64,000 nt of DNA from Escherichia phage HansTraber_Bas100, in sequence record PQ850605.1; one strand, 5' to 3'. Positions 11,195 through 58,771 of this stretch are shown piece by piece. The notes under the pieces are model-generated. The model made no database searches, was not told where the DNA came from, and saw nothing but the letters and a program-made list of their open reading frames with translations. Both the position numbers and the translations under genes were made by a program. The number at the start of each line of letters is the position of its first letter. Positions within the stretch are counted from its first letter, which is position 1.

Positions 11195-11196
11195 AC

Positions 11197-12227: not shown

Positions 12228-12787
12228 TGGACTTCGTTTCGATTCTGCTTTCTGGTCAATCTTTGACCATAACGAATGAGTCAACAGGTCTTCCTGTCTG
12301 GACAAGGCTTTCACCTGTTTCTGCAGAAATAACATCCCCAGCAGAAACAACTCAATTCCCTCTTGCTGGTACAGCCATGCAGGTTGTCGAAGTATCAAGC
12401 ACGTCATCAGTAAGCAATTTACAGGCGGCAAAGGTTGTAATGCCAGCCCATATGGCGTTAAACGTAATTTGCAATGACCAGTCTACAATTGAAAATATCA
12501 TAAATTCATTTGATGATGACGAAGTCACATTTTCAATAACTTCTCGAAGCATCATTGCCAGTAAAATGTCGATGTCCGACGTTGAAATAACCCAGTCAGA
12601 AGAAAACTTGAATGGAGTATCAATAGTAATAACTTTCGAGCAAACGTCATTTAGCATTCAAGGAAGCTTCGACCCTAAACAATCTGCAGACGAATCATCA
12701 AATGGTGTTGCTATTAAAGAACCAGTCAGTTTGACTACAACTGTGAGTTCGTTATATAATAAAATAAAATCAACAGTAGGAATATAG
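12227..12787 (+). CDS. hypothetical tail protein
   Basis: ORF track; tail module. Confidence 0.4.
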   Translation: MDFVSILLSGQSLTITNESTGLPVWTRLSPVSAEITSPAETTQFPLAGTAMQVVEVSSTSSVSNLQAAKVVMPAHMALNVICNDQSTIENIINSFDDDEVTFSITSRSIIASKMSMSDVEITQSEENLNGVSIVITFEQTSFSIQGSFDPKQSADESSNGVAIKEPVSLTTTVSSLYNKIKSTVGI

Positions 12788-12788
12788 A

Positions 12789-13205
12789 ATGAAGATCACC
12801 AACAAACAAACTGGTCGTACAGTAGAAATTAAAATCAGCAAAATGACTGCGATGGAAGGCTGGAATATTCAGCGTCGCTTTGTCGAATTTGCAATGTCGA
12901 AAGACCCTGCGTTCCGTTCAGAGTATACGATGGAAGTGTTGAGCTTCGCAAAAGTCGAGCTTGATGTGGGCCAAGAAATCCCATTAAGTACTGGTGCACT
13001 AATTGACAACCATCTTGGTGACTGGGAAAACCTTAAAGAAGTCTTCGAAGCAGTCCTCATGGAGAACGGTATAAACCCAGATACTCACGCCGAGCGTGAA
13101 GGCTACTGGGAACAAGCTGGCGGCGAAATGGCTGCAGCATTCATCGGCGAATCGATGCGATTAATCGCTCCATTCCTCAGCGGCGAGACTCCAAACAAGG
13201 GGTAA
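12789..13205 (+). CDS. putative tail assembly chaperone
   Basis: 138-aa acidic protein immediately upstream of the tape measure gene. Confidence 0.35.
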   Translation: MKITNKQTGRTVEIKISKMTAMEGWNIQRRFVEFAMSKDPAFRSEYTMEVLSFAKVELDVGQEIPLSTGALIDNHLGDWENLKEVFEAVLMENGINPDTHAEREGYWEQAGGEMAAAFIGESMRLIAPFLSGETPNKG

Positions 13206-13208
13206 ACT

Positions 13209-15389
13209 GTGTCTGACTCATTAGAAAAATTTGTGCTTCAATATACGGTGGACTTGAAAGAGTCCATCAATCGTCTTGAGCAATTGCAAGATAAGGTTGA
13301 TCAGACAAACAAAAAGGCAAAATCCGCTGGCAAAGATTTCTCTGGAGCATTCAAAGATGTTTTTGGCGAGCTAAAGCCGCTTACTGGTGAGCTAGGGTCA
13401 ATTGACGGAATACTTGCGCGGCTGACATATCGTTTTGCCGCGCTCGTCCCTGTTGTCGCAGGATTGGCAGTCGTCGTCAAATCCATCGTTGATGTTCGAA
13501 AAGAATACGAAGCGCAAAGAAAGCTTGGTTTTGAAGCCGGACTCTCTCCAATGGGTGTCGAACAACTACAACGACAGTTGAATGAAAGTTCAGGTGGCAT
13601 CCTTGGCGCACAGGGGTCGCGCGATTTAATCAGCAAAGCTTCTAATTTGGCATTCAATGCATACACCAACCCTGATGTGATGAACAAGGACAACTTGTTG
13701 CTGAACAAGATGGGGACAAGTCCTTTCAACAGTAACGGCGGCATCAAAGACACGAATCAGCTGCTTGATGAAATTGGAACAAAGCTGAGAAGTGTTAATG
13801 AGCAAACCGCTCGTGCCATTGGTGCTCTGGCAGGATTCACGGCTGATGAAGTCCGCGCCCTTCGTGAGCGCAACCAGTCTGTGAAAGAAAGCACGCGCAT
13901 AAGTGACGAAGAAACCGCGAAGCTGCAAAGACAGCAAGCTGCTCTTGAGACTATACGAAATAGTATGGGGCAAATTCAAGAAGATTGGCGGCGTATTGAA
14001 CTGGTCATCGGTGAAAACGTTATGCCTGCATTCTCGACGCTTGTCAGCAAAACCGCCGATACAGTCGAAGGATTCCAGATGATGTTCCAAAGAATGTCCG
14101 ATGGGTGGTCTGAATTCGTCGACAATTTCATTGCTGACTTGAAACATCCGTTCGACAAGCAGGCCGCTGTCAACGAGCGTCACGAGCGTGCCGTTGATAG
14201 ATGGATCACGCAGATGGCAGACGGCGATGTGAAACGCCAGAGGAACCAGGAGCAAAACGCTGCTGAACAACGCTCTGCACAAGCACTTTTCACTCGTGAT
14301 ATAAATCTTTTTTCAAGCGCCGTGTCAACTTTTGCTGGCGTGATTGATGAGCGTCAAGCTTGGGCGGCATGGGCAGGTGAAATTGGGCGCAGCGCAGGGC
14401 AATCCGCGATGCCTGGAACGCCTGCATTGAATACTGGCGCGACCATAGGGAGTAATCTTGGGTCAGGAAACCCGACAGCGTATGACTCAATATATGAGGA
14501 AGCTTCAAAACGCTATGGCATACCTGTGGCGATGATGAAGGCCGTGACTGAAGTTGAATCTGGATTCAATCCAAATGCTGTGAGCGGAGCAGGCGCGACT
14601 GGTTTGATGCAAATAATGCCTTCTAACTTCAAGGGTCTTGGAATAACCGATGGCAATGATCCTCGACAAAACATTATGGGCGGCGCTCAACTGTTGAAAG
14701 AGTATTTAAACGCTGCCAACGGCGATTGGAATCTTGCGCTGACGATGTATCACGGTGGCTACGACCGCAGCGGCTGGGGCAAGAATACACGCGCTTATCC
14801 TGGAAAGGTCATGGCCGCTCTCGACCGACAATCCAATGGTGAGTATGCCACGGCAGCGCCGCAAGGTGCACCAGTTACTCCAGTACTTAGCGGTAGCGGA
14901 GCGGAAGCACCAAAGGGCAGCTATGCACCAGTACAAGGCCAATCGCGCCAAACAGTGCAATACAGGCAATTGCAAGAAGCCATTGCAGGATACCTGAACG
15001 TACCAGTTGAGCAGTTGATGCAGGGACAAGTCAACAAAGGTGATATTGACTTTGCTCAAACTTACCTTAAGCTTGGCACGCAAAGGGATTATATTAAAAA
15101 CATGCAACTGGCTTCAACTCCAGGTGTAAGACCGAACATTCAAGCCGAAGCTATGAAAAACGCTCGTCTTGCTGCATTCCAACTTGAAGCATTCCAGAAA
15201 TACGGTGGCGACCTTTCCGCGAATAGTCGACCTGGTGGGCGTGATATTACTATGGGTCAGAAAAACGTTGTCATCAACGTCAACGGCGCTCAAGACCCAC
15301 GCAGCACGGCATTCGAAACGAAACGAGTGCTTGAACAAGATGATATCAACGACATAAACAACCTTACTGCTACACCTTTGAAGTGGTGA
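13209..15389 (+). CDS. tail tape measure protein with lytic transglycosylase (SLT) domain
   Basis: 726 aa; helical N-terminal half with a hydrophobic segment; SLT catalytic signature KAVTEVESGFNPNAVSGAGATGLMQIMPSNF. Confidence 0.7.
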   Translation: MSDSLEKFVLQYTVDLKESINRLEQLQDKVDQTNKKAKSAGKDFSGAFKDVFGELKPLTGELGSIDGILARLTYRFAALVPVVAGLAVVVKSIVDVRKEYEAQRKLGFEAGLSPMGVEQLQRQLNESSGGILGAQGSRDLISKASNLAFNAYTNPDVMNKDNLLLNKMGTSPFNSNGGIKDTNQLLDEIGTKLRSVNEQTARAIGALAGFTADEVRALRERNQSVKESTRISDEETAKLQRQQAALETIRNSMGQIQEDWRRIELVIGENVMPAFSTLVSKTADTVEGFQMMFQRMSDGWSEFVDNFIADLKHPFDKQAAVNERHERAVDRWITQMADGDVKRQRNQEQNAAEQRSAQALFTRDINLFSSAVSTFAGVIDERQAWAAWAGEIGRSAGQSAMPGTPALNTGATIGSNLGSGNPTAYDSIYEEASKRYGIPVAMMKAVTEVESGFNPNAVSGAGATGLMQIMPSNFKGLGITDGNDPRQNIMGGAQLLKEYLNAANGDWNLALTMYHGGYDRSGWGKNTRAYPGKVMAALDRQSNGEYATAAPQGAPVTPVLSGSGAEAPKGSYAPVQGQSRQTVQYRQLQEAIAGYLNVPVEQLMQGQVNKGDIDFAQTYLKLGTQRDYIKNMQLASTPGVRPNIQAEAMKNARLAAFQLEAFQKYGGDLSANSRPGGRDITMGQKNVVINVNGAQDPRSTAFETKRVLEQDDINDINNLTATPLKW

Positions 15390-15393
15390 TAAT

Positions 15394-16266
15394 TTGAAAA
15401 AGAGAATCCTTAAAGTCACCTTATCTATGCCGGATGGCACAAGCCAAGTGCTTGATGAAGGATTGATGCTTAGATGCCGAATCAAAAAGGCAGCACTTTC
15501 CGTGCAAAATAAGGCCACAATCGAAGTCGCAGGATTAACAGGGTACTTGAGAGAGTACCTGCTTTCCAACTTCACCGCATTCAACAAACGTCTGCGTGAT
15601 CAAGGCCAATTGGCGGCGAATTATGTCAACGTAACAATTGAAGCTGGATATAGAGAAGGCAACGTTGTTAGTAGCAACTTAGTCTACAAGGGGCAAGTCA
15701 CAACGGTCGAGATAACAGCGCCGCCGCCGAACATCGTCATACGCATCACTTGCTACACCAACCAGATAAACAGGACTAAGTTCATCACTCAAGCTGCGCC
15801 GTCAAACCCAACATTCAAAGAGTTTGTGGAGTGGTCGGCAAAGCAAATGGATATTGATACTGTTATATGCGATACTTCGATTAACAATCAGCGCCTTGTT
15901 AACCCAGGCCGCACAACATATGTTGCAGCCGCCTTGCTGCTTGAGATTCAGAACTATCAAAGGAACTCTATTGCGGCATATATCGATGATGATACGCTCA
16001 TCGTCAAGGATAAAGACAAAATTCTGAATCCAGAACAAATAACGGTGATTGAGGAATTTGTCGGAATACCGATGTGGAACGAGTGGGGCGCTGACTTCAC
16101 TTGCATGTATAACGCGGATTTGAAGCTTGCCCAAGGTGTGAAATTCAAATCAGTCTTAAACCCAAGCTTGAACGACACCACATTCGTCATCATGCAACTT
16201 GAATATGATTTAGCAAGTCGTGATGACATATTTACGGTGACGGGCGACGTTGCACCATCGGCCTAA
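15394..16266 (+). CDS. tail/baseplate protein
   Basis: 290-aa ORF (TTG start) directly after the tape measure gene. Confidence 0.4.
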   Translation: MKKRILKVTLSMPDGTSQVLDEGLMLRCRIKKAALSVQNKATIEVAGLTGYLREYLLSNFTAFNKRLRDQGQLAANYVNVTIEAGYREGNVVSSNLVYKGQVTTVEITAPPPNIVIRITCYTNQINRTKFITQAAPSNPTFKEFVEWSAKQMDIDTVICDTSINNQRLVNPGRTTYVAAALLLEIQNYQRNSIAAYIDDDTLIVKDKDKILNPEQITVIEEFVGIPMWNEWGADFTCMYNADLKLAQGVKFKSVLNPSLNDTTFVIMQLEYDLASRDDIFTVTGDVAPSA

Positions 16267-41786: not shown

Positions 41787-42869
41787 ATGGCTAGTTTAAG
41801 AGAAGAAGCAAAAATAATCGAAGAGTTTTTAACAGAACTCCAAAGAGGCATTCCAGAAGATGAGCGCGTCATGACGGTGTTTGCGCCTGAAGCAACGGTG
41901 CAGACTGACGAGCGCGGCAAGAAGATTAACAGCAGCTTCTGGCCTAAGCCTTGGAAGTTGGGCAAGCCGCTCATGCAGCACCAAAACGGCTATGCCTGCA
42001 TCAGTTCAATGCGTAAGTCTCCCAACCCGAAGACGGGTGAGATGCGATACTGGCGTACAGAGTCAGCCTTTGGTCACGGTATGGCGATGATGGTCGACGA
42101 CATCGGTCACGGTAAAGGGTCCAAAGGCGATTTAGATTTGGAATTCTTTTTCGAGCGACTGAAGCCGACTGTCATTGTCGAGACGTCACCGAACAACCAC
42201 CAGCTGTGGTACTTCTTTAAAGAACCAATTGACCATCTTATTCAGTTCAAAGCATTCCTTGGGTCTTTCGTAAACATGGTACTCAAGAAGGGCGGCGACA
42301 ACACGATTAAAGACGTAACGCGCGTGGGCCGTGTTCCTGGGTGCATCAACAACAAGCGCGTGACTCACGACGGCCCCTATAAATATGTCGATGAGAACGG
42401 CGACCCGTTCCGCTGCCGACTTGTCCATGCAGATTACTCCTTGCGCTACACCATCGAAGACATTTGTCAGGCATTCGGCTTTCACGTTGTAATGCCGCAA
42501 AAGCGTGAGATTCAAATTGACGTCGATGAATACAAATACGATGCTGTTTGGTATAAGATAGCCCAGCAGATTCTAGCGCGCAACAAGATGGGTGAAGGGT
42601 CTGATGGCGACGTTATCGAGAATATGTCAGGTAAGTGTCGCATAATCTGTCCTTGGGGTGAAGAGCACACCAACGGCGACCCGTATGGCGCTTACTTTCG
42701 CGGCCCTATTCCTGGTGCAGAACATGAATTTGTGTTCGGTTGCGCCCACGACTGTCACCGGAAAGGGGAAGGCAAGAAAGGTTGGACCGCTTTTGTTGAA
42801 GCAATCGTCATGCCTTATATTGAGAATCAACTTGACATGATAAATCGTCGTGCAGGTGGCATAAAATAG
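41787..42869 (+). CDS. putative DNA primase (primase-polymerase-like core with C-terminal Cys/His cluster)
   Basis: MMVDDIGH and VIVETSPNNHQLWYFF resemble prim-pol Asp and H-x-W motifs; C-terminal CPWGEEH...CAHDCH; followed by a D5/VirE-like helicase. Confidence 0.45.
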   Translation: MASLREEAKIIEEFLTELQRGIPEDERVMTVFAPEATVQTDERGKKINSSFWPKPWKLGKPLMQHQNGYACISSMRKSPNPKTGEMRYWRTESAFGHGMAMMVDDIGHGKGSKGDLDLEFFFERLKPTVIVETSPNNHQLWYFFKEPIDHLIQFKAFLGSFVNMVLKKGGDNTIKDVTRVGRVPGCINNKRVTHDGPYKYVDENGDPFRCRLVHADYSLRYTIEDICQAFGFHVVMPQKREIQIDVDEYKYDAVWYKIAQQILARNKMGEGSDGDVIENMSGKCRIICPWGEEHTNGDPYGAYFRGPIPGAEHEFVFGCAHDCHRKGEGKKGWTAFVEAIVMPYIENQLDMINRRAGGIK

Positions 42870-44179: not shown

Positions 44180-45850
44180 ATGTCAATTAATAACGACAAT
44201 CTTCCAGAGGATACAGGTGATGAATTTGGTGCAATCTTTGACGAAATTCAAGATGCAGGCGTTTCGGAAGAAATGCAGGCAGCAGAGCAGCAAGGCACCA
44301 GAGCTAAAATCAGCCTTCAACATAAAGCCGTTGAAAAAGATTCAGAGCGCATGGAATGCTACGGTGAAGAAGACTTGGTTGAAAGAGCACGCTTGCTCGC
44401 CTCACTTCAGGTAATCAAGTTCCCTCACTACAAGCCGACCAAAGATGACTTCGTTCTACAGGCAGACCGGACGAGTGACATGAACCGTTATGCGGTTTTC
44501 GACGCGTTGTTTGATAAGGGAAGTGGCGTTGTTCCATTCCCTCACAAAGATACCTTTCGTGGGCGCTTAGTCGACCATCGCGGCGAAACATTCACCGACC
44601 GTACTTTGGAAGTCACAGAGATAGTTGCCGCTGTCGACGCAGCAGGATTGTCCAACCCAAACTCACGTCAGGTCGCTCAATCCTATAAGGAATGGGCCAT
44701 GCGTTATCAGCGCGACGACCTGATGGACTTCTTCTACAAGAAGCTGCCTGAATGGGACGGTACTGCGCGCATCGAGAAATACCTTATCGAGCTATTCCGA
44801 CCGTTCGATACAGAGTTAAACCGACAAATCGGTGTGTATTTTTGGCTATCGCTCTACAACCGCCTGACCAACCCTGGCTGTCAAGCGCCAATCTCCATTG
44901 CGCTCATCGGCGGCCAGAACGCAGGGAAGAGTTATTTTAGCAAGCTGCTTTGCGAAGCTATTATGAACGACCGCCACGCAACACCGATTCCGTTGAACTT
45001 AGCCGCGCAGAACTTCAACCCGTTCTTGCGAGCTATTACGGGTCGCTCAATTATCGCGAACGTCGGCGAGATGACAGGCTTTAAAAAGGCCGACATCGAA
45101 AACATGAAAGCATTCCTGACTAAGACGGAAGATGACCTGGACTTCAAATTTGAAGATACGCAGGTTAAACCACGCCAGTGGATTGCTATCATGGACGGCA
45201 ACGAATACGCAGGCATGCAGCGTGATGACACGGGCAACCGTCGTGTGTATCCTATCTTTGTTGGCCAACTCGCTGACAAGGACGGGCAACCGAACTGGTC
45301 GAAAGACTTCCAAGCTGACCTTTCCACTTTGAAAGAAGATGTTTGGCAATTGATGGCTGAGTGCGCTGCTTGGATGGAGAAGCACGGCGAAGCAGGCTAC
45401 AACGCGTTTGTTGGTGAAACATCTCGCATGCTTACTGAGTTCAGTAAAAACGAAATGGAACGTGCGCGCGGCGTTATCCGTGATGAGATGGTTGACAATG
45501 ACCTTGTTGAAGTCGTCATCACCGCGCCTTATGACCGACATCACAGCGGACGCTGGCACATCACCAGTGGTGCTATTGCTATGGGATTCAGAGCGAAGTG
45601 TGGCAAGTCGCCTTTCTCTCGTACCCTTGCGCCGCACATGTCGAAGCTTGGTTTTGAGCCTGCAACCTATCGCAACCAGCGCGGTTACTTTACGCCGCTG
45701 ATTAAGAATGAAGCAGGGGAATACATTTCTGACTTGATGACCATCTTAGCGTATCTTATCCGTGATGAGTCTGACCCTGAAGATATTGAATTCTTGAAGA
45801 AGGTTATCGAGCGTAAACGTTCTTTGGGAAGAGATAAGGATGAATTCTGA
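44180..45850 (+). CDS. primase-associated helicase (D5 / VirE-like P-loop NTPase)
   Basis: 556 aa; Walker A IALIGGQNAGKSYF; downstream of the primase-like gene. Confidence 0.6.
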   Translation: MSINNDNLPEDTGDEFGAIFDEIQDAGVSEEMQAAEQQGTRAKISLQHKAVEKDSERMECYGEEDLVERARLLASLQVIKFPHYKPTKDDFVLQADRTSDMNRYAVFDALFDKGSGVVPFPHKDTFRGRLVDHRGETFTDRTLEVTEIVAAVDAAGLSNPNSRQVAQSYKEWAMRYQRDDLMDFFYKKLPEWDGTARIEKYLIELFRPFDTELNRQIGVYFWLSLYNRLTNPGCQAPISIALIGGQNAGKSYFSKLLCEAIMNDRHATPIPLNLAAQNFNPFLRAITGRSIIANVGEMTGFKKADIENMKAFLTKTEDDLDFKFEDTQVKPRQWIAIMDGNEYAGMQRDDTGNRRVYPIFVGQLADKDGQPNWSKDFQADLSTLKEDVWQLMAECAAWMEKHGEAGYNAFVGETSRMLTEFSKNEMERARGVIRDEMVDNDLVEVVITAPYDRHHSGRWHITSGAIAMGFRAKCGKSPFSRTLAPHMSKLGFEPATYRNQRGYFTPLIKNEAGEYISDLMTILAYLIRDESDPEDIEFLKKVIERKRSLGRDKDEF

Positions 45851-53535: not shown

Positions 53536-54068
53536 TGGGTAACGATGCAGGATGGGGCAAGCCGCGATACTCAAAACTTGCCCACTACTTTGACGACGGC
53601 GAGCAAATCAGCTTGTGCGGTAAATTCAGCAAAGGCAATACAGAGTTGACCGATGCTCAAGAAATGGAATCAAGTTTGACAATTGGTGATTGCTCTAAGT
53701 GCAGAAAGGCATTATATGAGTTATTAACTCTAAGGGGATTGAAAGCGGCAAAATCAAGGGATGAATGGGTCATTAACGTCTGTGAAGGGAATCCAGAATT
53801 AATGGATGAATTGCTGAAAACAGATGCCGTAAATGCAATTTTCAAAAGGCATTATAAAACTTGTATGCGTTACAAGATGAATGATGATATTATTTTTATG
53901 GTATTATCTTATTCAAGGAGCACAATGGACGTCAAAAAGCTTCGACAATATCGCCACAAGGTCATGTGTGAATTGCGCCGTTTAGGAGTTATTGTGGATA
54001 ATAATGTCATTAAAACGGAATTGAAGAAGCGTGATAAAAGGAATGGTGACTGGAAGGTCAGCGGATAA
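53532..54068 (+). CDS. hypothetical early protein
   Basis: ORF track. Confidence 0.4.
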   Translation: MMGNDAGWGKPRYSKLAHYFDDGEQISLCGKFSKGNTELTDAQEMESSLTIGDCSKCRKALYELLTLRGLKAAKSRDEWVINVCEGNPELMDELLKTDAVNAIFKRHYKTCMRYKMNDDIIFMVLSYSRSTMDVKKLRQYRHKVMCELRRLGVIVDNNVIKTELKKRDKRNGDWKVSG

Positions 54069-54330
54069 ATAAACACTGTTTACGTGTTTTGAAGAATGGA
54101 ATGTGTGCAATTGGTCGCTTTATGCGGCCTTTTGTCGTTTGGGTCGTGTTTTGCGATGGAATGATTATGAGGTTGTGTTTTATTTATTGATTGTGCGGAA
54201 ATATTTAGAAATATATATAAACAGGATTGTTAATATTTTAATAGTGTATGGCTATTGGTCCGTGGTGTTTGTTAGATTATATCTATGGATTGAAATTTTA
54301 GTGTCGTGAAACGTGGTTTTGAACACATTT

Positions 54331-54700
54331 GATACGCCTAAAATACGGTTAAAAATTAAGCGTATCATGGCTGCAGGCCGCGCCGTTGCTGGATTCCTAT
54401 TTTCAAAAGTGGTACACCCTTACGTCATGATACGTCATGGTTTTCTATCCGTAAGAGTGTACAGCCCTTGCCGCGCCTGGCTTGTACATTAATCTTACGG
54501 ATGATACGGATAAAACTGAGCATCGTTATATATAGAATTCGAAAAATTAATTAACTCCATTTTAAAAACATTTATATTAATTTTTTTCATATCCTCATAC
54601 TTATGTTAATTTATATATTTAACGTATCATCCGTAAGATATAAGTAAAAACAAAGACTTGCGGCAATACGGATGATACGTCATGATACGCTTCAACCAGC
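54331..54700. repeat. second iteron-like ATCCGTATC/GATACGGAT repeat region with similar AT-rich core
   Basis: Same architecture as 2108..2373; core TATATAGAATTCGAAAAATTAATTAAC closely resembles the first region. Confidence 0.6.
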
Positions 54701-54917
54701 CAGCAGCGGCTAAGTCATTGATTTGCATAACAAGCGGCGAAAGGGATGGATTTCTTTTATACGTATCAAACAGTACACCACGCACCACGGTCCGCTATTC
54801 ATTCAGCACTATGATTTATGTACTTTTACAGCCAATCTGAACATCAATCTGCACTTGAATATAATGTTCATTCATTGTATAATTCACACTATTAATTTGC
54901 ACTATGGGATTTGCACT

Positions 54918-55391
54918 ATGAGTCAAGATTATGTAGCAATGCCTGAAGACTTTGAAGACCCGCGATTTGCAGAGCATAATCAGGCATTATTCGATGAGTT
55001 CATTGACCTTGTTATTCAGGGCCATGACATGCGCGCAGCTTTTGCACTAGTATTTGGCATGGAGGTTGCGACCGATAACTACACTGGCCAGCGAATCCTC
55101 TGCACGCAACGCAATCCGTACTACAAGATGCGCTACAAAAAGCGTATGGAAGAGATGCCATTGAAGGAATTGTGGAGCGTAAAGAGTTCCATCCACAATT
55201 TAGTGAAGCTTGTGCGTGATCCAGAAGTCGCGGCGTCAGCCAAGCTTAATGCCATTCGTGAACTGAATATCATCTACGGCATCACGATGATTGATGAAAA
55301 TGGCAATAGTAAAATGGGCCGTTCCATGGACGATTTCTACAAGGATTTTGGAGAGGCAGCCAAAGAGGGTGAGCAATTCTCCCGCCACTAG
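54918..55391 (+). CDS. hypothetical protein (158 aa); start codon embedded in the ATTTGCACTATG motif
   Basis: Internal ATG at 54918 preceded by two motif copies; phage-like base composition; function unknown. Confidence 0.4.
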   Translation: MSQDYVAMPEDFEDPRFAEHNQALFDEFIDLVIQGHDMRAAFALVFGMEVATDNYTGQRILCTQRNPYYKMRYKKRMEEMPLKELWSVKSSIHNLVKLVRDPEVAASAKLNAIRELNIIYGITMIDENGNSKMGRSMDDFYKDFGEAAKEGEQFSRH

Positions 55392-55408
55392 CCAATTTGC
55401 ACTATAAA

Positions 55409-55446
55409 ATGGCCCTAGAACACATTTTCTCCACTTCTAGGGCCAT
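55409..55446. other. perfect 12-bp-stem hairpin (ATGGCCCTAGAA / TTCTAGGGCCAT, 14-nt loop)
   Basis: Perfect inverted repeat 3 nt after the motif copy at 55394-55405 and 18 nt after the stop of 54918..55391; no T-run. Confidence 0.5.
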
Positions 55447-55505
55447 CGGTAATACGACGGGGAAGGTTACAACCATAAACGCGTTAGAAAGTGTATTATT
55501 ATAAG

Positions 55506-55769
55506 TCATCTTTTAGTCACTTTACGTAACAATTTACGACCTTCCGCCGTCCAGTCGAACGACTCCACCAGCAGATTTGCACTATAACCTAAGACGATGC
55601 GTCCCTTCTCGTTATCGACCCGCCAACAAGTCTCGAATAGCATTCGATTTGCACTATTAACTATCGCCGCGACGCGCGTTGGGTAAGCGCAATTTGCACT
55701 ATGGTCATAAAGGGATAAGGTGCGACCGCTTCCGATGGACAACGTAGCGATAAGAATAAGCGTATTCAT
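55506..55769 (-). CDS. doubtful ORF reading through the motif array (motif encodes S-A-N three times)
   Basis: ORF track; hydrophobic N-terminus MNTLILIATLSIGSG; weak RBS; may be an artefact of the in-phase DNA repeats. Confidence 0.2.
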   Translation of the reverse strand: MNTLILIATLSIGSGRTLSLYDHSANCAYPTRVAAIVNSANRMLFETCWRVDNEKGRIVLGYSANLLVESFDWTAEGRKLLRKVTKR

Positions 55770-55819
55770 AAGCCACCAATTTGCACTATGAAAAGCGACC
55801 CCGAAGGGCCGCCATTCGA

Positions 55820-56446
55820 TTAGATAATCTGGAATGTGTAGGACTTGTTGCCGAACTCGAAGTTCAAGCGTCCAGCTTCCTTAAGCTTCATGCGGAAGCG
55901 AATGTGCTTGCTATCCGGTAATCCCAGCGCGGCGAACGCTACGCGGACCGATTTGAACTCGCCTACACCCTCGACCATGACACCGTTACGGGTGAGACGC
56001 TTTTGCGCCACTTCCTTATTATCCCAGCTTTTTGCAATACCTTCGCTATTCGAACGGCGATGGGAAGGAGTTCCATTTTGCACTACGCAATTTGCACTAT
56101 CGTTTAAACCGCTCTTAACGAAGGCTTCATACTCTTCGTCGGTCATCGCGTCGAGTTCTTCCTGGGTCGGCTCGGCCTTTTTAACGACCGCACGCGCCTT
56201 ATGCGTTTTTACATCGCTGGGCACTTCCTCGCGCGACTTCGCGTCTGGGATGGGCGACTCGTTGGACGGCTCATCGAGCGCGTTTAAGGACTCGATTAAC
56301 GCTATTACGCGAGTCTCGGCGGTCCGGCGGTCCGCAAATTTTTTGATCGGCTTCGAACCGGAATTTGCATTGTAAAATGCAACGAGGTCGGCGGTCTTAG
56401 TTGCGATAACGTCGCCGCTAGTCGAGAAACGATTTAAGCTAACCAT
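55820..56446 (-). CDS. hypothetical two-domain protein (208 aa) of the foreign cassette
   Basis: ATG with AGGAG RBS; structured N- and C-terminal regions separated by an acidic low-complexity linker; contains motif copies at 56075-56100; CpG-rich codon usage. Confidence 0.5.
   Translation of the reverse strand: MVSLNRFSTSGDVIATKTADLVAFYNANSGSKPIKKFADRRTAETRVIALIESLNALDEPSNESPIPDAKSREEVPSDVKTHKARAVVKKAEPTQEELDAMTDEEYEAFVKSGLNDSANCVVQNGTPSHRRSNSEGIAKSWDNKEVAQKRLTRNGVMVEGVGEFKSVRVAFAALGLPDSKHIRFRMKLKEAGRLNFEFGNKSYTFQII
56075..56100 (+). repeat. two adjacent motif copies (ATTTTGCACTAC, AATTTGCACTAT) inside the 208-aa gene
   Basis: Read directly; on the coding strand they translate as D-S-A-N-C-V-V-Q-N. 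Confidence 0.6.
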
Positions 56447-56526
56447 AATGAACTCCTATTTGTTAGGGCGCTAGGCGCGAAAGAATTTTATTAAAGCGCC
56501 GCGCACGACGCTCTAAAAATCCTCTC

Positions 56527-56811
56527 TTACGCTTCGACGAGGGAGAAGGTCTCAAATTCTTCTTCGCCCATAACGAGTAAGATGTTACCGATTTCGACCG
56601 CTTCGAAGAAGTATCCGTTAACGTTTACTTCGAAGGCTTCGCGGTCCGATTCCGGTAACGCCGCGTAAAGTTTAAAAGCCTCGGCGACCGTTACCCCACC
56701 CGCCTCGATAGTTTGGTCTACGTTCGCGGCGTAGACTTCGGATAAAATTTGTTTTACGCCGTAGTTCTCGACGATAGCGTTACGAATAGAAGAAACGTTA
56801 AGAATAGCCAT
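56527..56811 (-). CDS. small acidic protein, paralog family member 1 (94 aa)
   Basis: AGGAG RBS; shares SEVYAANVDQTIE and VNVNGYFFEAVEIG blocks with 57445..57735; net charge about -12. Confidence 0.5.
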   Translation of the reverse strand: MAILNVSSIRNAIVENYGVKQILSEVYAANVDQTIEAGGVTVAEAFKLYAALPESDREAFEVNVNGYFFEAVEIGNILLVMGEEEFETFSLVEA

Positions 56812-56834
56812 TTTAAACTCCTAGTTGGGAGAGG

Positions 56835-56860
56835 CGTTAACGACCTATTCGTTAACTCAT
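56835..56860 (-). promoter_or_regulatory. 5' leader element: mini-uORF (ATG-AGT-TAA) overlapping a hairpin GTTAACG-AATAGGT-CGTTAAC
   Basis: Conserved with the leader of 57445..57735; stem differs but stays complementary, loop AATAGGT identical. Confidence 0.45.
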
Positions 56861-56879
56861 CCCGTCCCGATATGAGTAC

Positions 56880-56907
56880 ATTATAATATAGTGTAGAAAA
56901 AAGTAAA
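56880..56907 (-). promoter_or_regulatory. cassette promoter P1 (TTTACT-17-TATAAT on the - strand)
   Basis: - strand reads GTGCTTTACTTTTTTCTACACTATATTATAATG, near-identical to P3. Confidence 0.45.
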
Positions 56908-56917
56908 GCACTTTTTC

Positions 56918-56944
56918 GATAAAAATGAGATAAATTATTTTATC
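56918..56944. promoter_or_regulatory. palindromic operator-like element between divergent promoters (GATAAAAA-11-TTTTTATC)
   Basis: 8-bp inverted repeat centred between the -35 elements of P1 and P2. Confidence 0.35.
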
Positions 56945-56951
56945 TTTTTTC

Positions 56952-56979
56952 TTTACTTCTTCGTACACTCGCGTATACT
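56952..56979 (+). promoter_or_regulatory. cassette promoter P2 (TTTACT-16-TATACT)
   Basis: CTTTACTTCTTCGTACACTCGCGTATACT shares the TTTACTTCTTCGTACACT block with P3. Confidence 0.4.
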
Positions 56980-57035
56980 TGTTTATATCGAGACGGGCGA
57001 TGGCCCTTCCTTCTACTAGCATCGGGAGTTTTATT

Positions 57036-57338
57036 ATGACTACTTTAATCTCTTCTATCCTTACTTACGACGAAGACCGTTTAACCGTTCGTTCTCTTAT
57101 CGCCGCCGTTAACGCGGAACTAGAATCCACCATCATTAAGGTCCGCGCGGTCGCTTTCGTCGGGCTTTCCTTCGACGATATGAAATACGCCGAACGTAGC
57201 GCCATCCGCTTCGCGAAGACCGACGACGAAGCCGTTACCCTTATCGAGACGGTTACGCCTCACGGCGAAGCGTTAATTATCGTCGAGTATATCGACGTAG
57301 AAGGCGATAAAGCTTATAAACATTTTATCGCAAAATAA
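57036..57338 (+). CDS. small acidic protein, possible divergent paralog family member 2 (100 aa)
   Basis: ATG with GGGAG RBS 7 nt upstream; an in-frame upstream ATG at 57000 is also possible; N-terminus MTTL resembles the other two. Confidence 0.45.
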   Translation: MTTLISSILTYDEDRLTVRSLIAAVNAELESTIIKVRAVAFVGLSFDDMKYAERSAIRFAKTDDEAVTLIETVTPHGEALIIVEYIDVEGDKAYKHFIAK

Positions 57339-57348
57339 CGAAAAGTGC

Positions 57349-57377
57349 TTTACTTCTTCGTACACTAAGACTATAAT
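57349..57377 (+). promoter_or_regulatory. cassette promoter P3 (TTTACT-17-TATAAT)
   Basis: GTGCTTTACTTCTTCGTACACTAAGACTATAATG upstream of 57445..57735. Confidence 0.45.
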
Positions 57378-57395
57378 GTTTTATATCGAGAGGGG

Positions 57396-57419
57396 ATGAG
57401 GTAGCGAATAGGTCGCTAC
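57396..57419 (+). promoter_or_regulatory. 5' leader element: mini-uORF (ATG-AGG-TAG) overlapping a hairpin GTAGCG-AATAGGT-CGCTAC
   Basis: Counterpart of the 56835..56860 element with compensatory stem changes. Confidence 0.45.
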
Positions 57420-57444
57420 CCGCCCGACCAACTAGGAGATTATT

Positions 57445-57735
57445 ATGATTACTTTAGCCGCTATCCGTTCCGCTCGCGTCGAGACTTCCGAAAACTCTAA
57501 CGTATTTGGCGAGACTTTAGAGAGCGTTTATCTCTCTAACGTCGACGCGACTATCGAGTCTATTTATGAGCCGATCAACTTCCTCGACCTTTACAAGTAT
57601 CGCGACGAGGACATCGTATCGTCCCGCGTAACGATCAACGGCTTCGTTTATACGATTACCGAAATCGGCGGCGAATATATCGCGGTCCCGCAACTCGGCG
57701 GCGAAGTAACTTATTTTAAAATCGTCTCCTTATAA
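57445..57735 (+). CDS. small acidic protein, paralog family member 3 (96 aa)
   Basis: AGGAG RBS; ESVYLSNVDATIES and VTINGFVYTITEIGG blocks shared with 56527..56811. Confidence 0.5.
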   Translation: MITLAAIRSARVETSENSNVFGETLESVYLSNVDATIESIYEPINFLDLYKYRDEDIVSSRVTINGFVYTITEIGGEYIAVPQLGGEVTYFKIVSL

Positions 57736-57755
57736 TACCCTTCCGTTACTAATAG

Positions 57756-57780
57756 GCCGCGCTTAGTCGCGGCTTTTCTT
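57756..57780 (+). terminator. rho-independent terminator (GCCGCG-CTTAGT-CGCGGC + TTTTCTT)
   Basis: Perfect 6-bp GC stem followed by a T-run 20 nt after the stop of 57445..57735. Confidence 0.6.
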
Positions 57781-57900
57781 CGTCCCTATCTCGTTGCGCT
57801 CCTACGCGAAAACTCCTTTATCCTTCCCTTCGTCGTCGCATAATCTTCGTCGGTATGCGCCTTAGTTCGCATAACAGGTATTACGTTAAATGGAGAACAT

Positions 57901-57973
57901 CGCGTAAGTCCTTGTTTTATATAGACACCTATATCGGACCGTTAGGGCGGGTCGCGTAAGTCGTTGTTTTATA
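57901..57973 (+). repeat. 21-bp direct repeat CGCGTAAGTC(C/G)TTGTTTTATA, two copies 52 bp apart
   Basis: Copies at 57901-57921 and 57953-57973 inside the 0.6-kb non-coding stretch; palindrome ATATAG-ACAC-CTATAT between them. Confidence 0.55.
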
Positions 57974-58202
57974 AAGGCGCAAAACTTTCCCTTCGTTCCG
58001 AACTAAAACGAGAAATATGCGGACCCTTCGCTCGAAAATAGTACGCATGCGAAATTACCGACATCTAGAATAATCCCCATCGATATTATCCTACGCGCAA
58101 CCATTCGCTTTCGAATTGTAACGCTGGAAACTGTAACGGCGATTGATTATTGCGTTCGTGTGGTTTTTAGGGCATGGGTCTTTTGGTGCGTTTTGCTACT
58201 TG

Positions 58203-58318
58203 ATGGAATTTGCAGTACACTAATCAAAATACGACACATTTGGTCCACTAACTTTTCAAAGAAAAAGTCCTAGACAGTACCGTACTATTTTGTATCCACA
58301 GGAAATTTGCAGTACACT
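58203..58318 (+). repeat. two copies of 17-bp GGAA(A)TTTGCAGTACACT, a variant of the left-end motif
   Basis: Copies at 58203-58219 and 58301-58318; palindrome CAGTACCGTACT between them at 58274-58286. Confidence 0.55.
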
Positions 58319-58390
58319 CCTGCGCGCGGCAGGCAAAATAAAGGGCCGCACTAAGCGACCCACGATTCACGGTTAAATCAACAACACCCA

Positions 58391-58771
58391 CTATTCACTC
58401 TTATGGGCATCACCAAATCCATCAGCAATCTGGCTGATCAACGACTCAATGGACACAGTTTTACCAATTGATCGAGCGGTTATGGCGAGCATATTATCAA
58501 TCAAACCGTGATTAACACAATACTCTGGAGATTTAGAATCATCTTCAGAACAACCAAAAAGCTGGTCGCGCAGACTTTCAAGAGAACGCTCAATATTTTC
58601 CAACTTCTCTTCTAAATCGGATTGGCGACGTAAAACCCATGTCAAGTCACGGTTGCCAACTTCCAATCCATCAGAATAGCAAGGTGGAGCGTCAATTTTG
58701 ATGCTGGAACCAAAAGCAGTGCCGCTGCCTTTAGTATAAGTATGGCTCATAGAATCATTTTTATTTGACAT
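58391..58771 (-). CDS. hypothetical protein
   Basis: Internal ATG at 58771 with AGGTAA RBS; phage-like composition resumes here. Confidence 0.4.
   Translation of the reverse strand: MSNKNDSMSHTYTKGSGTAFGSSIKIDAPPCYSDGLEVGNRDLTWVLRRQSDLEEKLENIERSLESLRDQLFGCSEDDSKSPEYCVNHGLIDNMLAITARSIGKTVSIESLISQIADGFGDAHKSE

What the first reader, a model, noticed from the sequence alone, without database searches (positions are those of the whole stretch)
55392..58390. Compositionally foreign ~3-kb cassette between phage gene blocks
From just after the stop of 54918..55391 to just before the 58391 gene, the sequence changes character: it is CpG-rich with TCG/CGA/ACG/GCG/CGC-type codons and visibly higher GC than the flanks. 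It carries its own sigma70-like promoters, a clean terminator, four or five ORFs and about 0.6 kb of non-coding DNA, and is bracketed by copies of one short motif. This looks like a recently acquired self-contained module, and is my best candidate for an undescribed system (regulatory, anti-defence or parasitic element).
Basis: partly seen in the sequence, partly recalled or inferred. Interest (0 to 1): 0.85.

Follow-up and report, generated by a model that had tools for sequence, protein, structure and literature searches.

The report
CA/TG-free early module in phage terminal repeat
The flagged 3 kb is not foreign DNA but the early-gene part of this E. coli phage's 3.7-kb terminal repeat, and about 1.8 kb of it almost completely lacks the dinucleotides CA and TG, in genes and spacers alike. 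Two sister phage genera keep the same rule, I found no published description of it, and it may explain why these phages resist most restriction enzymes.

Summary
The compositional break is real, but it is not a GC shift. GC is 0.459 in the core against 0.463 outside. CA/TG is excluded: 72 observed against 268 expected in 56300-58130 (P=3e-51). CpG and TpA roughly double to balance it.

Six codons (CTG, TTG, GTG, TCA, CCA, ACA) are unused in the three core genes, and Gln, His, Cys and Trp are rare or absent.

The window is a Wifcevirus. The segment lies inside the 3.7-kb direct terminal repeat (54559 to about 58264) and is present in all 28 relatives, so it was not recently acquired. Equivalent 2-kb CA/TG-free islands lie at the same place in the terminal repeats of Kylevirus (Pantoea) and Myosmarvirus (Serratia), carrying mostly unrelated small acidic genes. 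Substitutions within the genus still avoid creating CA/TG.

The island has three copies of one sigma70-type promoter in divergent units, three acidic ORFan genes, a terminator and a conserved non-coding tail.

Published BASEL phenotypes fit a T5-like rule. The repeat has no EcoRI, EcoRV, EcoAI or CACAG (EcoCFT_II, inferred) sites but 5-7 AGACC sites. EcoP1_I, which cuts AGACC, is the only system that restricts these phages.

Best reading: a pre-early, T5-like anti-restriction/host-takeover module. What reads CA/TG is unknown.

The parts
54559..58264 (.). Direct terminal repeat (DTR) of the phage, collapsed to one copy in this window. The flagged cassette is its right three quarters.
   Evidence: The WFC and Mansfield records both start at the sequence of window 54559. 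The WFC record repeats 3784 bp at its right end, which ends at window 58264. PhageTerm gives 3673 bp for Mansfield, ending at about 58186. Korf 2019 reports a terminal repeat of about 3.7 kb.
54918..55391 (+). Small terminase (TerS) gene with normal dinucleotide composition. It lies just left of the flagged region.
   Evidence: phmmer E=9e-33 to the solved small terminase 7uxe. phrog_4783. CA/TG 1.2-1.7 of expectation.
54895..56100 (+). Array of ATTTGCACTAT sites. There are 8 exact copies, all on the + strand, plus variants at 54882, 55040, 56076 and 56363. The function is unknown; TerS binding, a DNA-transfer stop or a phage-specific promoter are possible.
   Evidence: (chance expectation about 0.03 exact copies). 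The same family occurs in the Pantoea phage Kyle DTR between TerS and the island.
55565..55572 (-). The single Chi octamer (GCTGGTGG on the - strand) of the DTR, embedded in one extended motif copy.
   Evidence: Sister genera have 4-9 Chi sites in the same zone and orientation.
55392..56299 (.). Graded zone. CA/TG is moderately depleted (about 0.4-1.0 of expectation) and CpG is 1.4-1.9. Many of the remaining CA/TG sit in the motif copies.
55506..55769 (-). g87: an 87-aa basic protein with a signal-peptide-like N-terminus. Function unknown.
   Evidence: Homolog Kyle_2, phmmer 1e-11. No family hit.
55820..56446 (-). g208: a conserved lineage core protein (phrog_4730) of unknown function. A paralog sits inside the island of Serratia phages.
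   Evidence: No solved relative. The AF2 model is unusable, pLDDT 40.
56300..58130 (.). Core of the CA/TG-free island.
   Evidence: 72 CA/TG against 268 expected; CG 206 against 107; TA 164 against 88; GC 0.459 against 0.463. Index log2(CG*TA/(CA*TG)) is about +5, against about -1 elsewhere.
56527..56811 (-). g94: an acidic 94-aa ORFan (pI 4.05), paralog of g96. The locus is hypervariable, and WFC carries an unrelated allele here.
56880..56907 (-). Early promoter copy P1 (TTTACT, 16 nt spacer, TATAAT), driving g94 and probably g208.
   Evidence: Inverted repeat I2 with P3.
56952..56979 (+). Early promoter copy P2 (TTTACT, 16 nt spacer, TATACT), driving g100.
   Evidence: Direct repeats D8 and D9 with P3.
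57036..57338 (+). g100: an acidic 100-aa ORFan (pI 4.8).
   Evidence: No family hit.
57349..57377 (+). Early promoter copy P3 (TTTACT, 17 nt spacer, TATAAT), driving g96.
   Evidence: About 78-80 % identical to a stretch of the Pantoea phage PA1 island.
57445..57735 (+). g96: an acidic 96-aa ORFan (pI 4.2), hypervariable within the genus (64-99 % aa identity).
   Evidence: The AF2 model is unusable, pLDDT 56.
57754..57775 (+). Intrinsic terminator of the rightward unit.
   Evidence: Annotated in Mansfield and WFC.
57776..58130 (.). Non-coding tail of the island, still CA/TG-poor. Up to about 58000 it is 96-99 % conserved in the genus. It contains the direct repeat TCGCGTAAGTC(C/G)TTGTTTTATA at 57900 and 57952.
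   Evidence: No Rfam match and no excess RNA folding.
58207..58318 (+). Two copies of AATTTGCAGTACACT (58207-58221 and 58304-58318) that bracket the WFC-type right boundary of the DTR at 58264.

Best explanation
The segment is the early ('pre-early') expression module of the phage's 3.7-kb direct terminal repeat. It works like the first-step-transfer region of phage T5 but is not homologous to it.

Proposed sequence of events:
1. One repeat copy is the first phage DNA active in the cell.
2. Host sigma70 RNA polymerase fires three copies of one strong promoter in two divergent units.
3. These units make small, acidic, fast-evolving proteins (g94, g100, g96, perhaps with g208 and g87).
4. Those proteins protect the rest of the genome against restriction and take over the host.
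5. This DNA has to work before any protection exists, so it must be invisible to DNA-targeting host activities. It carries no sites for most restriction systems, and its core has gone further by purging the CA/TG dinucleotide altogether. CAG/CTG and CAA/TTG are purged most strongly.

Shown here:
- the location in the repeat;
- the promoter, gene and terminator anatomy;
- the dinucleotide exclusion, its conservation in three genera, and its continued maintenance;
- the match between sites present in the repeat and the published restriction phenotypes.

Inferred:
- early timing and first entry;
- the protective function of the proteins;
- that the exclusion is a stealth adaptation. The agent that reads CA/TG is not identified.
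For: Location:
- The segment lies in the DTR.
- In Wifcevirus and Myosmarvirus, whose termini are mapped, the island ends 60-130 bp from one physical genome end. Kylevirus has the same layout, but its repeat length is only estimated from record lengths.

Anatomy:
- Three repeated TTTACT...TATAAT promoters in divergent units, followed by a terminator.
- Proteins with pI 4.0-4.8 and no known family.
- g94 and g96 are only 46-65 % identical at DNA level between WFC and this phage, while the flanks are 95-99 % identical. Alleles are exchanged between genera. This pattern is typical of arms-race genes.

The exclusion acts on the DNA itself:
- Both dinucleotides are depleted on both strands, in all codon phases and in non-coding DNA.
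- Six codons are unused, and Gln, His, Cys and Trp are depleted.
- The same rule holds in Kylevirus and Myosmarvirus.
- Within the genus, substitutions that create CA/TG number 27 against 49.6 expected, and those that remove it 22 against 10.6. Control regions match expectation.

Phenotype fit:
- BASEL Wifcevirus plate at EOP about 0.3-2.4 on EcoCFT_I, EcoRI, EcoRV and EcoCFT_II, despite 36-38 counted EcoRI sites (19 in this window) and about 90 EcoCFT_II sites. They give no plaques on EcoP1_I.
- I inferred the EcoCFT_II site to be CACAG. It is the only 5-mer that reproduces the published counts of 81 in T7 and 63 in P2.
- This window's DTR has no EcoKI, EcoAI, EcoRI, EcoRV or CACAG sites. For CACAG, 4.9 are expected, P(0)=0.008, and the DTR lies in the largest CACAG-free gap of the window. 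It has 7 AGACC sites, 5 of them in the island core, in both orientations.
- The pattern holds in the phages that were phenotyped. ManiWeber has 0 CACAG and HermannAdler has 1; neither has EcoRI, EcoRV or EcoAI sites; they have 6 and 5 AGACC.
- The same rule is established for T5 and BF23. They resist restriction unless the site lies in the first-step region, and their pre-early genes sit in the duplicated repeat as two inversely oriented units (PMC10644984).
Against: - No transcription or DNA-entry data exist for these phages.
- Which end enters first is unknown, and the clues conflict. Chi orientation points to the TerS-side end. Packaging logic from lambda, T7 and N4 (my own knowledge) points to the island-side end.
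- There are no homologs of T5 A1, A2 or dmp, or of T7 Ocr or gp5.9.
- Protein functions are untested, and both structure models failed.
- The restriction fit rests on few systems. Only the CACAG/AGACC contrast is statistically strong, and the CACAG site was inferred rather than read.
- EcoKI was not tested on these phages, and ManiWeber has one EcoKI site in its repeat.
- T5 relatives resist EcoP1_I despite sites in their first-step DNA, so sensitivity could simply mean the protector does not cover EcoP1_I.
- Generic site avoidance explains the CA/TG purge poorly. The share of possible 5-bp specificities with no inverted site pair is 47 %, against 42 % in controls. Palindromes such as CTAG, TCGA and CGCG are enriched.
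- T7 and T5 leading DNA show no CA/TG exclusion.
Confidence: 0.45

Rival explanations
1. Self/non-self mark for a nuclease the phage itself unleashes. Early proteins would trigger degradation of host DNA by an activity that needs CA/TG (most of all CAR/YTG). The only phage DNA present at that moment survives because it lacks the target.
For: - The exclusion is total enough to distort protein composition. It applies to the dinucleotide rather than to particular sites. One cutter of low specificity would explain this better than many restriction enzymes.
- How unmodified T5 DNA escapes the A1-dependent degradation it induces is an acknowledged open question.
- Very fast replication is reported for Wifcevirus.
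Against: - No nuclease is recognisable in or near the island.
- The rest of the repeat, including TerS, has normal CA/TG and would be destroyed.
- T5 first-step DNA is not CA/TG-free.
- There is no evidence that these phages degrade host DNA.
Confidence: 0.15
2. A cis-acting role tied to the genome end. The CA/TG-free duplex or its single strands would serve recombination, replication or packaging of the terminal repeat. Examples are avoiding RecBCD/Chi-like or RecA-preferred GT-rich sequences, avoiding primase start sites (host DnaG uses CTG), or keeping terminase from cutting near the end.
For: - The island ends 60-130 bp from a physical end in the two genera with mapped termini, and lies in the same place in the third.
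- Chi octamers are clustered, all in one orientation, right beside the island: Kyle 9, MTx 4, MyoSmar 4, Wifcevirus 1, against 0.06 expected. RecBCD is therefore clearly a selective force on this repeat.
- CTG/CAG is the most depleted trinucleotide, 1 against 61 expected in the core.
- The 355-bp non-coding tail is 96-99 % conserved.
Against: - The depletion is symmetric on both strands and covers all eight CA/TG trinucleotides. Strand-specific processes such as priming, Chi recognition or a 3' tail would predict asymmetry.
- The other half of the repeat is not constrained.
- No specific mechanism predicts CAT/ATG tolerance.
Confidence: 0.15
3. Mutational footprint. A context-specific mutation or repair bias confined to this part of the repeat would drive CA/TG to CG and TA by transitions, without selection on the dinucleotide.
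For: - The compensating gains are exactly the two transition products.
- The equilibrium pattern of substitutions fits either biased mutation or selection.
- The fungal RIP process shows that CpA-targeted mutation can reshape repeated DNA.
Against: - Losing CA/TG at fixed base composition forces CG and TA up arithmetically, so the 'transition' look is not diagnostic.
- GC is unchanged, unlike RIP.
- The edges are sharp, within 100-200 bp, and in the same place in three genera.
- The remaining CA/TG sit in promoters, start codons and motif copies.
- The depletion is strand-symmetric, and no deaminase or other mutator gene was seen.
Confidence: 0.1
4. An expression-level cause. The rule would serve transcription or mRNA function of the earliest genes, for example by removing -35 (TTGACA) and extended -10 (TG) look-alikes, internal NTG start codons, or RNase or toxin cleavage sites.
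For: - All start codons and the sigma70 -35 and extended -10 elements contain TG or CA.
- The island promoters themselves use TTTACT.
- The genes are probably very highly expressed.
Against: - Depletion is equal for CA and TG in the sense strand of genes transcribed in one direction only, and in the untranscribed tail after the terminator.
- ACA, the MazF site, is among the least depleted trinucleotides.
- Even the real promoters pay the cost.
- There is no RNA structure signal.
Confidence: 0.07
5. One reading: a recently acquired foreign cassette or parasitic element that keeps the composition of its donor.
For: There is a sharp compositional break, and the segment has its own promoters and terminator.
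Against: - Present in all 28 relatives in conserved synteny.
- Inside the terminal repeat.
- g208 is a core gene of the lineage.
- No integrase, transposase or att-like ends.
- The same signature occurs with different genes in two other genera.
- In about 2.1 Mb of other viral DNA only one locus came near, an unrelated fragment with much weaker depletion. No known kind of genome has this dinucleotide signature (my own knowledge).
Confidence: 0.03

Closest known systems
First-step-transfer (pre-early) region in the long terminal repeats of phage T5, BF23 and other Tequintavirus
   Same: - It lies in a long direct terminal repeat.
- Small genes of unknown function form two inversely oriented sigma70 units, beside a repeat-rich non-coding border.
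- The phage resists type I, II and III restriction unless the recognition site lies in this segment (PMC10644984). The Wifcevirus site map and the BASEL phenotypes reproduce this pattern.
   Different: - There is no sequence homology to A1, A2, dmp or other T5 pre-early genes.
- The repeat is 3.7 kb rather than 10 kb, and it contains the TerS gene.
- Two-step DNA transfer is not shown.
- T5 first-step DNA has raised CpG (1.35 against 0.76) but no CA/TG exclusion.
- T5 relatives resist EcoP1_I, whereas these phages do not.
Leading end of phage T7 (promoters A1-A3 plus gene 0.3/Ocr)
   Same: Several strong host-type promoters sit close to a genome end. They drive a small, very acidic first protein that blocks restriction before the rest of the DNA is exposed.
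   Different: - There is no homology to Ocr.
- The T7 left end has normal dinucleotide composition.
- Ocr covers only type I restriction, whereas Wifcevirus also resists EcoRI and EcoRV.
Restriction-site (oligonucleotide) avoidance in phage genomes
   Same: Selection removes short words from phage DNA. The effect is strongest where the DNA is exposed first (Rusinov 2018 as cited).
   Different: - Classical avoidance removes specific 4-6-bp, mostly palindromic, words genome-wide.
- Here a whole dinucleotide is purged from a 2-kb patch. Palindromes CTAG, TCGA and CGCG are enriched, and amino-acid usage is reshaped.
- The generic gain against random specificities is small.
Repeat-induced point mutation (RIP) signature in fungi, and CpG-depletion signatures
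   Same: Loss of CpA/TpG with gain of TpA in repeated DNA, detected with the same kind of dinucleotide index.
   Different: - CpG is doubled rather than unchanged, and GC is not lowered.
- The genes stay intact and conserved.
- It is the mirror image of methylation-driven CpG to TpG decay.

Membership tests
T5-type first-step-transfer / pre-early region | Located in a long direct terminal repeat | tested here: met
   DTR 54559-58264.
T5-type first-step-transfer / pre-early region | Host-promoter-driven genes in two inversely oriented units | tested here: met
   Promoters at 56907-56880(-), 56952-56979(+) and 57349-57377(+), with a terminator at 57754-57775. This is sequence prediction only.
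T5-type first-step-transfer / pre-early region | Restriction acts only when the recognition site lies in the segment | tested here: met
   There are 0 sites in the DTR for the four tested systems that fail and 5-7 AGACC sites for the one that works. This is a correlation between published phenotypes and my site map, and the CACAG site is inferred.
T5-type first-step-transfer / pre-early region | Homologs of A1 and A2, the proteins needed for second-step transfer | tested here: not met
   tblastn best E=0.2. No Pfam, PHROG function or NCBIfam match.
T5-type first-step-transfer / pre-early region | DNA entry pauses after the segment (two-step transfer) | not testable with these tools
   Needs interrupted-infection experiments.
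DNA-mimic anti-restriction proteins (Ocr, ArdA, gp5.9 type) | Small and strongly acidic | tested here: met
   g94 pI 4.05, g96 pI 4.23, g100 pI 4.79.
DNA-mimic anti-restriction proteins (Ocr, ArdA, gp5.9 type) | Sequence or fold similarity to a known mimic | tested here: inconclusive
   No sequence similarity. The AF2 model has pLDDT 56, so no fold search was run.
Horizontally acquired genomic island / mobile element | Atypical GC, mobility genes or att-like ends, and patchy presence among relatives | tested here: not met
   GC 0.459 against 0.463. No mobility genes. Present in all 28 relatives.
Classical restriction-site avoidance | Depletion of specific short palindromic recognition words | tested here: not met
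   CTAG 18 against 2.2 expected; TCGA and CGCG are enriched. The depleted unit is a dinucleotide.
RIP-like mutational signature | CpA to TpA change with a fall in GC and gene inactivation | tested here: not met
   CpG is doubled, GC is unchanged and the ORFs are intact.
Rfam RNA families | Match to a curated covariance model | tested here: not met
   No match at E<=1 in 53800-58600.

The most novel reading that the evidence does not exclude
The CA/TG-free island is a previously unrecognised kind of cis-encoded immunity: a 'dinucleotide exclusion zone'. It would make the first-acting phage DNA unreadable to one broadly conserved DNA-targeting activity with minimal CA/TG (CAR/YTG) specificity. 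That activity could be an Enterobacterales host function or a nuclease the phage itself sets loose on the host chromosome. The island would then be a sequence-encoded self mark rather than a sum of restriction-site losses.
Probability: 0.3. Interest if true: 0.9.

Novelty: new variant of a known kind. Interest (0 to 1): 0.8.

Why it matters
[quoted passage not shown] It noted that the contrast with EcoCFT_II was unexplained. The site map gives a concrete answer: a T5-like pre-early module in the terminal repeat. It points to three small candidate genes and to simple engineering tests.

**The composition rule appears to be new.** Two full-text searches returned no paper describing exclusion of one dinucleotide from 2 kb of coding and non-coding DNA in phages. 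The exclusion is strong enough to remove six codons and most of four amino acids. It has been kept through complete gene turnover in three genera. Something in these infections therefore reads CA/TG, and finding it could reveal a new host defence or a new phage weapon.

**Practical uses.**
- The dinucleotide index is a one-line scan that could find first-acting DNA in other phages.
- The island is a natural template for 'stealth' DNA design.

Tried and rejected
- **GC-content shift:** absent.
- **Foreign origin:** rejected.
- **H-NS high-affinity motif (TCGATAAATT-like):** CGATA and CGTTA are enriched only as far as the island's own dinucleotide content predicts. Only CTTCG/CGAAG exceeds that model, probably because of Glu-rich coding.
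- **Structured RNA:** no Rfam match. Folding z-scores are -0.4 and +0.6 for the non-coding tail.
- **tRNA or codon-supply explanation:** rejected. The rule follows dinucleotides across codon phases and also holds in non-coding DNA.
- **Generic reduction of possible restriction sites:** the gain is small.
- **General property of first-injected DNA:** not seen in T7. T5 shows only a CpG excess.
- **Homology to T5 or T7 early proteins:** none.
- **Pfam, PHROG and NCBIfam:** no informative hits for the five proteins.
- **Structure prediction:** g96 family pLDDT 56 and g208 pLDDT 40. Both are too poor for fold search, so none was run.
- **Large-database search with g208:** returned only near-identical Wifcevirus copies.
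- **Promoter 14-mer scan of viral contigs:** too unspecific to find relatives, but it served as a second null set.
- **Literature searches:** none returned a description of CA/TG exclusion in phages or of the early biology of this lineage.
- **DnaA boxes:** not enriched overall.

Full report
**1. What the sequence is**

Megablast places the window in the genus Wifcevirus, 68-kb E. coli/Shigella myophages such as WFC, ECML-117, Mansfield and the BASEL phages Bas98-101. All 28 records match at 92-96 % identity, and 24 of them cover at least 80 % of the 5-kb query.

Two records were opened at mapped termini.
- Mansfield annotates a PhageTerm direct terminal repeat (DTR) of 3673 bp at its start.
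- WFC carries both copies, 3784 bp each. Korf et al. report 'a terminal repeat of about 3.7 kb'.

Both records begin at the sequence of window position 54559. The repeat ends at window 58186 (Mansfield) or 58264 (WFC). The flagged 55392-58390 is therefore the right three quarters of the terminal repeat plus about 130 bp beyond it. The window is a circularly collapsed assembly.

**2. Checking the observation**

GC does not differ: 0.468 in the region against 0.461 in the window, and 0.459 in the core against 0.463 outside. CpG does differ. Observed/expected is 1.88 in the region, against 0.94-1.25 in 3-kb windows that do not overlap it.

The CpG excess is the visible half of a larger signal:

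| Dinucleotide | Odds ratio in 55401-58250 | Odds ratio outside |
|---|---|---|
| CA/TG | 0.49 | 1.18 |
| CG | 1.91 | 1.09 |
| TA | 1.15 | 0.67 |

All other dinucleotides are unchanged.

- From 56300 to 58130 both CA and TG run at 0.17-0.4 of expectation on the + strand.
- In that core there are 72 CA/TG against 268 expected (P=3e-51), 206 CG against 107, and 164 TA against 88.
- The zone 55400-56300 is graded.
- The TerS gene just to the left is normal.

At fixed base composition, removing CA and TG can only be balanced by adding CG and TA. I therefore describe the feature as CA/TG exclusion.

The 'bracketing motif' is real but belongs to a family of ten or more sites.

**3. The exclusion acts on the DNA**

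- It affects both dinucleotides on both strands, all three codon phases, and the non-coding parts.
- In the three core genes the codons CTG, TTG, GTG, TCA, CCA and ACA are used 0 times, and GCA makes up 3 % of Ala codons. Reference genes of the same phage use these codons at 20-36 %.
- Gln falls from 4.1 to 1.0 %, His from 1.4 to 0.7 %, and Cys and Trp to zero.
- All eight CA/TG-containing trinucleotides are depleted. CAG/CTG is hit hardest, 1 against 61 expected in this core, and CAT/ATG least.
- In non-coding island DNA pooled over three genera, the survivors are skewed the same way (chi-square p=3e-8):

| Trinucleotide | Observed | Expected |
|---|---|---|
| CAG/CTG | 12 | 27 |
| CAA/TTG | 21 | 38 |
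| CAC/GTG | 30 | 20 |
| CAT/ATG | 49 | 28 |

- The remaining CA/TG sit in start codons, Met, His and Gln codons, the repeated promoter, and the ATTTGCACTAT sites.

**4. It is conserved and still maintained**

The 208-aa protein at the graded edge (phrog_4730) is a core protein of the wider Pbunavirus-like lineage. Around its homologs I found the same kind of 2-kb island in two sister genera:
- Pantoea phages PA1 and Kyle (Kylevirus);
- Serratia phages SMP, MTx and MyoSmar (Myosmarvirus).

Their index log2(CG*TA/(CA*TG)) reaches 5-8. A Xanthomonas phage and a Pbunavirus show only weak traces.

- In MyoSmar and MTx the island lies inside a PhageTerm-mapped terminal repeat of 3559 and 3566 bp. 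As here, it stops about 100 bp from one physical end.
- In Kyle it lies at the same place relative to TerS. The Kyle repeat length is only estimated from record lengths.
- The island genes are mostly unrelated between genera. One acidic family links the WFC allele, Kyle_6/PA1_93 and MyoSmar_3/MTx_4 at E about 1e-5.
- Within Wifcevirus the g94 and g96 genes are only 46-65 % identical between WFC and this phage, while their flanks are 95-99 % identical. The WFC alleles are equally CA/TG-free.
- Comparing this window with four relatives, substitutions in the core that create CA/TG number 27 against 49.6 expected, and those that remove it 22 against 10.6. In the TerS part and the right flank, observed equals expected.

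Two null sets were scanned with the same index:
- 79 loci around g208 homologs. Outside the three genera the maximum was 2.26.
- 117 arbitrary viral loci, about 1.06 Mb. Besides a Wifcevirus, only one unrelated AT-rich 5.7-kb contig (L186, index 3.9) exceeded 3.

**5. Anatomy of the module**

In window coordinates, left to right:
- Left terminus at 54559, in the centre of a 27-nt inverted repeat.
- TerS at 54918-55391, with E=9e-33 to solved small terminase 7uxe.
- An array of eight exact ATTTGCACTAT sites at 54895-56100, all on the + strand. One copy is extended to contain the Chi complement.
- g87 and g208 on the minus strand.
- The island core.
- The right repeat boundary, midway between two AATTTGCAGTACACT copies.

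The island core contains:
- three copies of one roughly 50-bp promoter (TTTACT, 16-17 nt spacer, TATAAT/TATACT), one pointing left and two pointing right;
- g94 on the minus strand, and g100 and g96 on the plus strand, with pI 4.05, 4.79 and 4.23;
- a terminator at 57754-57775;
- a 355-bp non-coding tail that is 96-99 % conserved up to about 58000, with no RNA-family match or folding signal.

g94 and g96, together with their leaders and promoters, form an inverted duplication (I1 and I2). None of the five proteins matches a family of known function. g96 relatives exist only in Wifcevirus. Both structure predictions failed.

**6. Link to published phenotypes**

[quoted passage not shown] - The raw data for Bas98-100 show EOP about 0.3-2.4 on EcoCFT_I, EcoRI, EcoRV and EcoCFT_II, and no plaques at all on EcoP1_I. 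EcoKI was not tested.
- The papers give the EcoCFT_II site only in a figure. I recovered it from their site counts. CACAG is the only 5-mer with 81 occurrences in T7 and 63 in P2. The same method reproduces their AGACC, EcoRI and EcoRV counts exactly.
- This window's terminal repeat has no EcoKI, EcoAI (= EcoCFT_I type), EcoRI, EcoRV or CACAG sites.
- The largest CACAG-free gap of the window, 53780-58297, spans the repeat. For CACAG, 4.9 sites are expected and P(0)=0.008.
- The repeat has seven AGACC sites, five of them in the island core, in both orientations.
- In the phenotyped phages ManiWeber and HermannAdler, the repeat has 0 and 1 CACAG, no EcoRI, EcoRV or EcoAI, and 6 and 5 AGACC.

This is the rule known for T5 and BF23. 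[quoted passage not shown] Their pre-early genes lie in the duplicated terminal repeat as two inversely oriented units (PMC10644984).

**7. Most likely mechanism**

I read the segment as a functional analogue of the T5 first-step/pre-early region. It would be the first phage DNA to act, transcribed by unmodified host polymerase. It would encode small, fast-evolving proteins that protect the rest of the genome and take over the host, and it would be selected to carry nothing that host DNA-targeting systems can recognise.

- The location, the anatomy, the composition rule and the site/phenotype correlation are shown.
- Timing, entry order and protein function are inferred.
- It is not a member of the T5 family. 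There are no A1, A2, dmp, Ocr or gp5.9 homologs.

**8. What remains unexplained**

The CA/TG purge is too broad for ordinary site avoidance.
- The share of 5-bp specificities with no site rises only from 9.6 to 23 %.
- The share with no inverted pair rises only from 42 to 47 %.
- Palindromes such as CTAG, TCGA and CGCG become more frequent.

Three enterobacterial type III sites, CAGCAG, CAGAG and CACAG, share CAG, the most depleted trinucleotide. The first two are from my own knowledge and the third is inferred here. This gives a partial rationale only. A single reader with CAR/YTG-level specificity, whether of host or phage origin, would fit better. T7 leading DNA and T5 first-step DNA lack the feature.

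Which end enters first is open.
- In all five repeats examined, Chi octamers lie only on the minus strand and only between the TerS-side end and the island: Kyle 9, MTx 4, MyoSmar 4, Wifcevirus 1, against 0.06 expected.
- That orientation stops RecBCD coming from the TerS-side end before it reaches the island. It argues that this end is exposed while RecBCD is active.
- Packaging logic from lambda, T7 and N4 (my own knowledge) argues for the other end.

**9. Verdict**

The 'recently acquired foreign cassette' reading is refuted, while the anti-defence reading is supported indirectly. No paper returned by the literature searches describes CA/TG exclusion in phages. I rate it a new variant of a known kind: a pre-early terminal-repeat module with recognition-site avoidance. 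There is a substantial chance that the dinucleotide exclusion reflects a mechanism not yet described.

Noticed in passing
L011 255-1972 (Pantoea phage Kyle); L010 179-1276 (Serratia phage MTx); L009 2107-2447 (MyoSmar); L003 8322-9894 (PA1); L004 13947-15125 (SMP); window 55565-55572: Clusters of exact Chi octamers (GCTGGTGG) lie inside the terminal repeats. All are in one orientation, and all lie between the TerS-side genome end and the CA/TG-free island: 9, 4, 4, 7 and 5 copies, and 1 in Wifcevirus, against 0.06 expected per strand. The orientation is the one active for RecBCD entering at the TerS-side end.
   Followed up: partly
window 54895-56100 (+ strand); L011 576-1484: There are eight exact copies of ATTTGCACTAT plus variants, all on one strand, flanking TerS and running antisense through g87 and g208. 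The extended form is CCACCAGCnGATTTGCACTAT. The same family occurs in the same zone of the Pantoea phage Kyle repeat. Its function is unknown.
   Followed up: partly
window 54482-54649: The left genome terminus (54558/54559) lies at the centre of a 27-nt inverted repeat (54482-54508 and 54623-54649). It is surrounded by TACGGATGATACG-type repeats, which makes this a candidate terminase recognition and cutting site.
   Followed up: no
window 58207-58318: The WFC-type right boundary of the terminal repeat (58264) lies midway between two exact AATTTGCAGTACACT copies. The PhageTerm boundary of Mansfield is about 80 bp further left.
   Followed up: partly
window 54070-54330: This non-coding stretch just outside the repeat is strongly G/T-skewed, with 34-36 TG against 5-6 CA per 300 nt.
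   Followed up: no
window 56527-56811; L002 1970-2284: The g94 position is a cassette-exchange site. This phage carries a paralog of g96. WFC carries an unrelated 104-aa acidic protein whose relatives sit in the islands of Pantoea and Serratia phages.
   Followed up: partly
window 53993-54001 (-) and 58292-58300 (+): The only perfect DnaA box of the window and a near-perfect one (GTATCCACA) lie just outside the two ends of the repeat. Overall, DnaA-like boxes are not enriched. T5 has DnaA boxes at its injection-stop region.
   Followed up: no
window 54536-54541: An EcoRI site lies 17 bp outside the left boundary of the repeat, while the 3.7-kb repeat itself has none.
   Followed up: yes
L008 1-9200 against 10300-16000 (phage T5): The T5 first-step-transfer DNA has a CpG odds ratio of 1.35, against 0.76 just beyond the repeat. 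GpC is 1.56 against 1.06, and CA/TG is unchanged. This is a different and weaker compositional step at the same functional border.
   Followed up: partly
L186 1-2100 and 4650-5740 (IMGVR_UViG_3300028414_000759): An unrelated AT-rich 5.7-kb viral contig shows a moderate CA/TG-poor, CpG-rich stretch (index 2.3-5.0) over ordinary-looking replication genes. The signature may exist outside this lineage.
   Followed up: partly
window 41787-42869 and 44180-45850: The phage encodes a RepB-type primase (PF16793, E=4.5e-36) and a VapE-like protein (PF05272, E=1.6e-28).
   Followed up: no
window 55506-55769 (-): g87 has a signal-peptide-like N-terminus and two conserved cysteines. It is conserved in Kylevirus (Kyle_2, E=1e-11). 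It may be an envelope or exclusion protein encoded inside the terminal repeat.
   Followed up: no
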